From assembly GCF_057098645.1 (NCBI RefSeq), contig NZ_CM169472.1: 64,000 nucleotides of DNA. One strand, 5' to 3'. This document shows positions 63,001-64,000 of this stretch, one piece after another; the first letter of the stretch is position 1, and every line of letters starts with the position of its first letter. Position numbers: made by a program.

Positions 63001-64000
63001 CATCTTCCCTTGCGAAAATCCTGGCTTACGTGGTATGCGTCAGGGCATTAGCAATACCCTTGATTATCAATAGCATAACCATAACCACTGAAAATTAAAA
63101 ATTTCTATATATTTCATATTGTTAAATGATACTTAAATAAATTTCATCAGTAAATCATTGCCATAGATAATCATTGGATGGCACAATCAATTTTCGCTAA
63201 TGATAACCATTCCCATTACGTTTTGTATGTTGATAGCAAAGTATCTCTGTCTGCTGAAGCCCTTTTGGCTGCGTAAGAATAATAAAACTTCAGTGTTGTT
63301 AATCATTATTATCCTCGCCATGATCCTTGGCGTGGTTAAAATTCAGGTCTGGTTAAACGACTGGAATAATGATTTTTTCAATGCGCTAAGCCAGAAAGAA
63401 ACCGATAAGCTTTGGCAGCTTGTCCTTTGGTTCCCTGCCCTGCTGGGGATCTTTGTATTAATATCCGTAAACAAAACATGGTTAATTAAACTACTGACTA
63501 TTCGCTGGCGCGAATGGTTAACAGATTACTACCTTAATCGCTGGTTTGCAGATAAAAACTACTACTTCACGCAGATCTACGGTGAGCATAAAAATACAGA
63601 TAACCCTGACCAACGTATCGCTGAAGACATTCTCTTACTGATCAGCAAAACGCTCAGCCTTTCATTTGGCTTCATCCAGTCACTTAGCATGCTGATCACC
63701 TTTACCGTTATTCTTTGGCAAAGCGCGGGTACGCTCTCATTCACTGTTGGTGGAACAGAATGGAATATCCAGGGGTATATGGTCTATACCGTCGTGCTCA
63801 TTGTGATTGGTGGAACTTTATTTACCCATAAGGTGGGTAAACGTATTCGTCCGCTTAATGTGGAAAAACAACGTAGCGAAGCGACATTTCGAACTAATCT
63901 TGTGCAGCATAATAAACAGGCAGAACTGATTGCGCTAAGGAAGGTGCGAATAAGCAGGTCATTTCTTCCCAAGCTGACTCGTTGATTAAAATTTCGCGGA

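What the first reader, a model, noticed from the sequence alone, without database searches (positions are those of the whole stretch)
63200..64000. yddA frame stops after 261 codons, 15 bp before the window end
Recalled full-length YddA is about 560 aa. A stop at 63983-63985 suggests a frameshift or nonsense mutation, unless the gene continues in another frame beyond the window.
Basis: partly seen in the sequence, partly recalled or inferred. Interest (0 to 1): 0.25.

Follow-up and report, generated by a model that had tools for sequence, protein, structure and literature searches.

The report
yddA cut by an IS5-family insertion
The E. coli transporter gene yddA stops early here because a common jumping gene (an IS5-family insertion sequence of the ISKpn26 type) has landed in the middle of it, an ordinary way for bacterial genes to be inactivated.

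Summary
An ORF runs from 63200 to 63985: 261 codons, with a TGA stop at 63983-63985, 15 bp before the window end. Intact YddA is 561 aa.

The proposed cause (frameshift or nonsense mutation) is wrong. The window matches intact yddA without indels through yddA nt 739 (window 63938), ending in the tetranucleotide CTAA (63935-63938). At 63939 the 16-bp terminal inverted repeat of an IS5-family element begins (GGAAGGTGCGAATAAG), and the element fills the last 62 bases. The ORF therefore encodes 246 native residues plus 15 residues and a stop read from the IS end.

The exact 261-aa product occurs on five public contigs. One 18-kb contig reads through: a 1196-bp IS (326-aa IS5-family transposase, antiparallel to yddA), a second CTAA, then the rest of yddA, yddB and pqqL. 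Deleting the IS and one CTAA in silico restores the 561-aa frame. That IS is 100% identical to copies RefSeq labels ISKpn26 family.

Whether this window's own IS copy is complete cannot be seen.

Side observation: the same CTAA is hit, with the same IS end facing the 5' half of yddA, by different IS5-type elements in different strains. It may be an insertion hot spot.

The finding is ordinary and already known in kind.

The parts
63197..63214 (-). Putative Fur box overlapping the yddA start codon. It reads CTAATGATAACCATTCCC on the + strand, the reverse complement of the published GGGAATGGTTATCATTAG.
   Evidence: Sequence read. The motif and the Fur regulation of yddA-yddB-pqqL come from PMC3855560. 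Not tested here.
63200..63938 (+). 5' fragment of yddA: nt 1-739, i.e. codons 1-246 plus the first base of codon 247. It encodes most of the membrane domain of an SbmA/BacA-like ABC transporter.
   Evidence: The blastn alignment to intact yddA of strain 95-3192 covers nt 1-743 at 99.87%; its single mismatch lies past the junction. 246 identical N-terminal residues. PF06472 matches residues 28-246, profile positions 10-212 of 269. Synteny ydeN-ydeM-yneP-yddA.
63935..63938 (+). CTAA target tetranucleotide, the left copy of the expected 4-bp target-site duplication.
   Evidence: In L001, L003, L004 and L005 the same CTAA flanks both ends of the inserted element. IS5 targets CTAA/CTAG and duplicates 4 bp (PMC5493358, PMC11677980, PMC8023600).
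63939..63954 (+). 16-bp terminal inverted repeat of the IS5-family element (GGAAGGTGCGAATAAG), at the end distal to the transposase start.
   Evidence: The only match in the window; expected by chance 0.01. Identical to the ends of the elements in L001, L003, L004 and L005.
63939..64000 (-). Terminal 62 bases of an IS5-family (ISKpn26-type) insertion sequence, cut off by the window end. In comparators the transposase gene is on the minus strand.
   Evidence: 62/62 identical to L007; 61/62 to L005, L006, L008 and ET474. The L005 element is 1196 bp and 100% identical to copies annotated 'IS5-like element ISKpn26 family transposase'. This tail is multi-copy, with thousands of places on chromosomes and plasmids.
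63200..63985 (+). Chimeric ORF: 246 YddA codons, 15 IS-derived codons (RKVRISRSFLPKLTR), and a TGA at 63983-63985 that lies inside the IS.
   Evidence: The exact 261-aa product is on record in NCBI, ENA and Logan assemblies.

Best explanation
yddA is interrupted by an IS5-family insertion sequence of the ISKpn26 type. The element inserted at the CTAA at yddA nt 736-739 (window 63935-63938), with its transposase-distal end facing the 5' half of the gene. Translation from the yddA start runs through 246 native codons into the IS terminal repeat. It then reads 15 unrelated codons and stops at a TGA 45-47 nt inside the IS. Shown: the 261-aa product lacks the end of the membrane domain and the entire nucleotide-binding domain (Walker A at residue 400, signature at 487, Walker B at 508). 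Inferred: it cannot work as an ABC transporter, so yddA is a pseudogene in this strain. Inferred, not seen in the window: the IS is a complete 1196-bp copy followed by a second CTAA and the 3' part of yddA, yddB and pqqL, as in every comparator that reads through. Inferred: yddA, yddB and pqqL are co-transcribed, and the IS transposase gene points against them, so the insertion is likely polar on yddB and pqqL rather than activating. Inferred: the flanking 8.3 kb is 100% identical to O145:H28 strains with intact yddA, so the insertion looks recent.
For: Collinearity with intact yddA ends exactly after CTAA, and the next 62 nt match an IS end. The IR is unique in the window, with 0.01 matches expected by chance. 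The last ~60 bases hit thousands of places on chromosomes and plasmids, while the yddA part is single-copy. The exact 261-aa product is found on 5 public contigs. L005 shows the order 261-aa ORF, 326-aa DDE transposase (minus strand), 290-aa yddA 3' fragment, yddB, pqqL. The L005 IS is 1196 bp and flanked by CTAA on both sides, and excising it in silico restores a 561-aa ORF. The transposase scores 367.5 bits on NF033581 'IS5 family transposase' against a cutoff of 140. The element is 100% identical to copies RefSeq labels ISKpn26 family. ISKpn26 is 1,196 bp, IS5 family, with a 4-bp direct repeat (PMC8023600). RefSeq annotates the analogous loci in ET474 and ApSLC23 as two partial pseudogenes around an IS5-like transposase. 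Three short-read contigs with the same ORF end 107-123 nt into the IS, as expected when an assembly breaks in a repeat. Domain loss is shown. Co-transcription and Fur regulation come from PMC3855560. 100% identity over 8.3 kb to strains with intact yddA is shown.
Against: Only 62 bases of the IS are in the window. Its completeness, the second CTAA and the 3' part of yddA are therefore not observed for this genome. The source genome could not be found: no complete RefSeq E. coli has this junction in this background, and no GTDB representative genome has the junction. Polarity on yddB and pqqL, and loss of function, are inferred and not measured.
Confidence: 0.9

Rival explanations
1. The IS end marks an IS-mediated rearrangement (adjacent deletion, inversion, or recombination between two IS copies) and not a simple insertion. 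In that case the 3' part of yddA, and perhaps yddB and pqqL, are deleted or lie elsewhere in this genome.
For: The window ends 62 nt into the IS, so nothing beyond is seen. No 3' yddA or yddB sequence is anywhere in the 64-kb window, although none would be expected upstream anyway. IS5 is reported to cause chromosomal rearrangements (PMC11677980). The genome carries at least one other mobile-element insertion nearby.
Against: All four comparators that read through this junction (L001, L003, L004, L005) are simple insertions with a CTAA duplication and an intact downstream yddA'-yddB.
Confidence: 0.1
2. One reading: a point mutation (frameshift or nonsense) within otherwise continuous yddA sequence creates the premature stop.
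For: The ORF is shorter than the 561-aa protein.
Against: There is no indel or stop in the 739 nt that align to yddA. After 63938 the intact gene reads GCAATGCTGAGTCTC..., while the window reads GGAAGGTGCGAATAAG..., which is an IS5-family terminal repeat. The stop lies in IS sequence.
Confidence: 0.01
3. Assembly artefact: the window comes from a contig whose end was wrongly joined to, or collapsed into, a repeated IS copy, and yddA is intact in the real genome.
For: IS copies are classic sites of assembly breaks, and three public short-read contigs stop just inside this IS.
Against: The junction lies exactly at a canonical IS5 target (CTAA) and exactly at the first base of the IR, as a real transposition product would. 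The identical junction is seen independently in several samples and in closed genomes, with the element fully resolved.
Confidence: 0.03

Closest known systems
yddA::IS5-like pseudogenes annotated in RefSeq genomes (E. coli ET474, NZ_CP100954.1; isolate ApSLC23, NZ_CM196105.1)
   Same: Same gene, same CTAA at yddA nt 736-739, same 4-bp duplication, and the same IS end facing the 5' half of yddA. RefSeq annotates a partial 'SbmA/BacA-like family transporter' pseudogene, an IS5-like transposase, and a partial 'ATP-binding cassette domain' pseudogene.
   Different: The strain backgrounds differ: 12 and 7 differences in the 739-bp yddA fragment, the nearest 23 bp from the junction. The element versions also differ. 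The ET474 copy is 96% identical to the L005 copy. The ApSLC23 copy is a 1195-bp element whose subterminal sequence differs at 27 of the first 62 positions. These appear to be independent events.
ISKpn26 (IS5 family, 1,196 bp) insertions that inactivate genes, e.g. acrR in Klebsiella pneumoniae ST11 (PMC8023600)
   Same: Same element type: the full copy in L005 is 100% identical to RefSeq 'ISKpn26 family' copies. Same 4-bp duplication at a C-T-A-R site, and the same outcome of a gene split into two fragments.
   Different: Different host gene and species. No resistance phenotype is implied here. The target here is CTAA, not CTAG.
IS5 single-site hot spots at CTAA (glpFK upstream region; nfsB codons 13-14), Saier laboratory (PMC5493358)
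   Same: One CTAA is used repeatedly although many Py-T-A-Pu sites are available. yddA has 27 such sites, 4 of them CTAA on this strand, yet all events found are at nt 736.
   Different: Those hot spots were shown experimentally and linked to easily melted (SIDD), AT-rich DNA. Here the evidence is only comparative and was gathered by searching for this junction. The local AT content (54-58%) is no higher than the gene average of 56.7%.

Membership tests
IS5 family insertion sequence (IS5 group; ISKpn26 type) | Characteristic 16-bp terminal inverted repeat GGAAGGTGCGAA(T/C)AAG at the element boundary | tested here: met
   Exact match at 63939-63954, unique in the window, 0.01 expected by chance. 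Identical to the ends of annotated IS5-like elements in L001, L003 and L005.
IS5 family insertion sequence (IS5 group; ISKpn26 type) | Subterminal sequence identical to a named element | tested here: met
   The 62 visible bases match 62/62 in L007 and 61/62 in L005. The L005 element is 100% identical over 1196 bp to copies annotated 'IS5-like element ISKpn26 family transposase'.
IS5 family insertion sequence (IS5 group; ISKpn26 type) | 4-bp target-site duplication at a Py-T-A-Pu site | tested here: inconclusive
   The left copy, CTAA, is present at 63935-63938 and is part of native yddA. The right copy lies beyond the window. Both copies are present in L001, L003, L004 and L005.
IS5 family insertion sequence (IS5 group; ISKpn26 type) | Encodes a DDE transposase of the IS5 family, in an element of about 1.2 kb | not testable with these tools
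   This part lies beyond base 64000, and the source genome was not found. In L005 the 326-aa product scores 367.5 bits on NF033581 (cutoff 140) and the element is 1196 bp.
YddA (fused permease/ATPase ABC transporter, SbmA/BacA-like) | Orthologous position and sequence: downstream of ydeN-ydeM-yneP, with a Fur box at the start | tested here: met
   100% nucleotide identity to annotated yddA of O145:H28 strains over nt 1-739, with the same neighbours.
YddA (fused permease/ATPase ABC transporter, SbmA/BacA-like) | Complete membrane domain (PF06472/PF05992) | tested here: not met
   The match stops at profile position 212 of 269 (PF06472) and 212 of 315 (PF05992). The intact protein reaches 268/269 and 312/315.
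YddA (fused permease/ATPase ABC transporter, SbmA/BacA-like) | ABC nucleotide-binding domain (PF00005; Walker A, signature, Walker B) | tested here: not met
   Absent from the 261-aa product. In the intact protein it spans residues 383-515, with motifs at residues 400, 487 and 508.

The most novel reading that the evidence does not exclude
The CTAA at yddA nt 736-739 is a natural, orientation-specific hot spot for IS5-family elements. At least five or six apparently independent insertions hit this one tetranucleotide, always with the same IS end facing the 5' half of yddA. They involve two ISKpn26-type versions, an IS5-type 1195-bp element and a 109-bp miniature element, on at least five different yddA haplotypes. 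The cause could be local DNA structure or protein binding, or recurrent selection for loss of the YddA-YddB-PqqL import system.
Probability: 0.45. Interest if true: 0.25.

Novelty: already known. Interest (0 to 1): 0.08.

Why it matters
It matters little beyond correct annotation. The ORF should be called a yddA pseudogene fragment fused to an IS end, and not a frameshifted gene or a novel short protein. In this strain the Fur-regulated yddA-yddB-pqqL cluster probably has reduced or no function. That cluster has been reported as a fitness factor in systemic infection by uropathogenic E. coli (PMC3855560). The repeated use of one CTAA by several IS5-type elements is a small but testable addition to what is known about IS5 target choice.

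Tried and rejected
1. I looked for the 3' part of yddA, for yddB, or for another copy of the IS inside the window. None was found.

2. I tried to find the window's own genome so as to read past base 64000.
- No complete RefSeq E. coli has this junction in this background. The best full-length hit is ET474 at 98.3%.
- Window 1-25000 is at most 99.0% identical to any complete genome.
- An exact 38-nt junction pattern found nothing in the GTDB representative genomes.

3. The exact-protein look-up succeeded, but the contigs it returned are other strains, 98.4-98.6% identical over 8.4 kb. The extension beyond the window is therefore by analogy.

4. Listing the protein cluster gave only assorted truncated or partial YddA fragments and did not identify the source.

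5. A literature search for yddA together with IS5 returned one paper, in which 'yddA' appears only in the name of an F-plasmid deletion, Δ(pifA-yddA). It is irrelevant.

6. I considered IS5-driven activation of the downstream genes through the transposase 'fusion promoter' described for fucAO (PMC11894529). I rejected it because the transposase gene here points away from yddB and pqqL.

7. I did not survey IS5-type insertions at the other 26 Py-T-A-Pu sites of yddA. The hot-spot idea therefore rests on a search anchored on this junction.

Full report
**Observation.** The ORF list gives 63200..63985 on the + strand, with an ATG start and 261 codons. The raw sequence shows TGA at 63983-63985, 15 bases before the window end. 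The upstream neighbours are the sulfatase gene ydeN, the radical-SAM maturase gene ydeM and the small gene yneP, as at the yddA locus of annotated E. coli genomes. In strain 95-3192 the annotated yddA is 1686 bp and translates to 561 aa.

**What causes the early stop.** A BLAST of intact yddA against the window aligns nt 1-743 to 63200-63942 at 99.87%, and a separate 60-nt match places the end of an IS5-like element at 63941-64000.
- A three-way alignment shows the window and the intact gene identical through ...GATTGCGCTAA. The intact gene then continues GCAATGCTGAGTC, while the window continues GGAAGGTGCGAATAAGCAGGTCATTTC.
- The 16-mer GGAAGGTGCGAATAAG occurs once in the window, with 0.01 matches expected by chance.
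- The yddA part is single-copy in E. coli genomes. The last ~60 bases hit thousands of places, including about 1,760 on plasmids.
- There is no indel and no stop codon within the 739 nt of yddA sequence. The first 246 residues equal the intact protein, and the remaining 15 (RKVRISRSFLPKLTR) and the stop are read from the foreign DNA.

The frameshift or nonsense interpretation is therefore wrong. The gene is interrupted by a mobile element.

**Identity of the element.** Only 62 bases are visible, so I used related loci.
- A look-up of the exact 261-aa product found it on five public contigs.
- Three short-read contigs stop 107-123 nt into the element, as expected when an assembly breaks in a repeat.
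- One 18.4-kb contig (L005) reads through. After the 261-aa ORF come a 326-aa DDE transposase gene on the opposite strand, a 290-aa ORF with SbmA_BacA and ABC_tran domains, and then the yddB and pqqL homologues.
- In L005 the element is 1196 bp, bounded by GGAAGGTGCGAA...TTCGCACCTTCC and flanked by CTAA on both sides. Removing it and one CTAA restores a 561-aa reading frame.
- Its transposase scores 367.5 bits on NCBIfam NF033581 'IS5 family transposase', against a cutoff of 140.
- The whole element is 100% identical to copies RefSeq annotates as 'IS5-like element ISKpn26 family transposase'.
- ISKpn26 is described as a 1,196-bp IS5-family element that makes 4-bp direct repeats (PMC8023600). 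IS5 targets C-T-A-A/G and duplicates 4 bp (PMC5493358 and PMC11677980).
- The window's 62 bases are 62/62 identical to L007 and 61/62 to L005. The single difference is synonymous (CGT vs CGC), so both versions give the same 261-aa product.

**Consequence for the gene.**
- In the intact protein, Pfam places the membrane domain (PF06472) at residues 28-301 and the ABC ATPase domain (PF00005) at 383-515. Walker A is at residue 400, the signature motif at 487 and Walker B at 508.
- The 261-aa product matches PF06472 only to profile position 212 of 269 and has no ATPase domain. It cannot be a working ABC transporter. This is an inference from domain content.
- yddA, yddB and pqqL are co-transcribed, Fur-regulated and strongly induced in urine in strain CFT073, and yddB and pqqL contribute to fitness in systemic infection (PMC3855560).
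- The published Fur box overlaps the start codon. Its reverse complement is present at 63197-63214.
- In all comparators the IS transposase gene points against yddA. The read-through 'fusion promoter' mechanism shown for IS5 at fucAO (PMC11894529) therefore does not apply. Polarity on yddB and pqqL is the more likely outcome, but it was not tested.

**Age and background.** Window 55633-63939 is 100% identical to many O145:H28 genomes that have intact yddA, so the insertion looks recent on that haplotype. No complete RefSeq genome combines this background with the junction, and the first 25 kb of the window is at most 99.0% identical to any of them. No GTDB representative genome has the junction. 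The strain itself is therefore not available to me. Whether its IS copy is complete and followed by the rest of yddA is inferred from four read-through comparators, not seen. An IS-mediated deletion or inversion remains possible; I put it at about 10%.

**Recurrence at one site.** Among 5426 complete genomes, three are broken at exactly this CTAA.
- ET474 carries a 1196-bp element that is 96% identical to the L005 copy.
- ApSLC23 carries a 1195-bp IS5-type element whose subterminal sequence differs from the window at 27 of the first 62 positions.
- 24AR0357 carries a 109-bp element with no ORF and the same terminal repeats.
- All have the CTAA duplication and the same end facing the 5' half of yddA.
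- The 739-bp yddA fragments fall into at least five haplotypes, differing by 6-12 positions. The nearest differences lie 23 and 44 bp from the junction. One haplotype (L004 = L005 = L006) carries two different elements.
- These look like independent insertions, not one inherited allele.
- yddA offers 27 Py-T-A-Pu sites, four of them CTAA on this strand, and the local AT content is not unusual.
- A rough uniform-target estimate (my own arithmetic) takes at most ~14,000 IS5-family copies in the collection spread over roughly 78,000 Py-T-A-Pu sites per genome. That predicts well under one further hit at a given site, against three observed.
- The caveat is ascertainment: I searched with this junction and did not survey the other sites. 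The hot-spot reading is plausible, and it is similar to the single-CTAA hot spots known in nfsB and upstream of glpFK (PMC5493358), but it is not established.

**Comparison with what is known.** This is a standard IS-insertion pseudogene. RefSeq already annotates the same kind of event at the same site as two partial pseudogenes around an IS5-like transposase, and the exact chimeric product is already in public protein collections. It is already known in kind and of low interest.

**Verdict.** Confidence in the IS-insertion explanation is about 0.9, and interest is 0.08.

Noticed in passing
window 51013-55720 (element 51845-55632): A second gene in the window is cut by a mobile element. A 3788-bp Tn3-family unit sits inside the ydeQ-like fimbrial adhesin gene, with a 5-bp TTTAA duplication (51840-51844 and 55633-55637). 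The unit has ~40-nt terminal inverted repeats, a 210-aa recombinase ORF at 52020-52652 and a 988-aa transposase ORF at 52633-55599. The ydeQ ORF reads 277 native codons and then 29 transposon-derived ones. Excision in silico restores a 304-aa ORF that is 301/304 identical to ydeQ in L006. The same unit (99.87% identical) lies at a different position in strain JNEC-KY179.
   Followed up: partly
L004 3060-3168 (E. coli 24AR0357, NZ_CP195351.1); not in the window: A 109-bp miniature element with perfect IS5-type 16-bp terminal repeats and no ORF occupies the same CTAA of yddA. It is multi-copy: 134 places in 32 of 5426 complete genomes, up to 31 per genome, 18 of them on plasmids, nearly all at 99% identity or more. 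This is consistent with a non-autonomous element moved by IS5 or ISKpn26 transposase. I did not establish whether it is already catalogued.
   Followed up: partly
yddA nt 736-739 = window 63935-63938; L001, L003, L004, L005-L008: The same CTAA is used, with the same IS end facing the 5' half of yddA, by at least four different IS5-type elements on at least five yddA haplotypes. It may be an insertion hot spot. The other 26 Py-T-A-Pu sites of the gene were not surveyed.
   Followed up: partly
window 44217-44781: hipA appears reduced to a remnant. Only parts of it align to hipA of strain JNEC-KY179, with internal gaps of about 257 and 643 bp, and the longest ORF there is 139 aa (44249-44668) against a 1323-bp gene. 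hipB upstream looks intact.
   Followed up: no
window 39178-40228: About 1 kb inside the large ECSE_1600-family autotransporter gene has no counterpart in the closest complete genome (JNEC-KY179). This is probably repeat-number variation within the gene.
   Followed up: no
L001 2780-3477 (E. coli ET474); not in the window: In ET474 the neighbouring gene ydeM is also split, by an IS1 element. That strain therefore carries two IS insertions within 2.5 kb at this locus.
   Followed up: no
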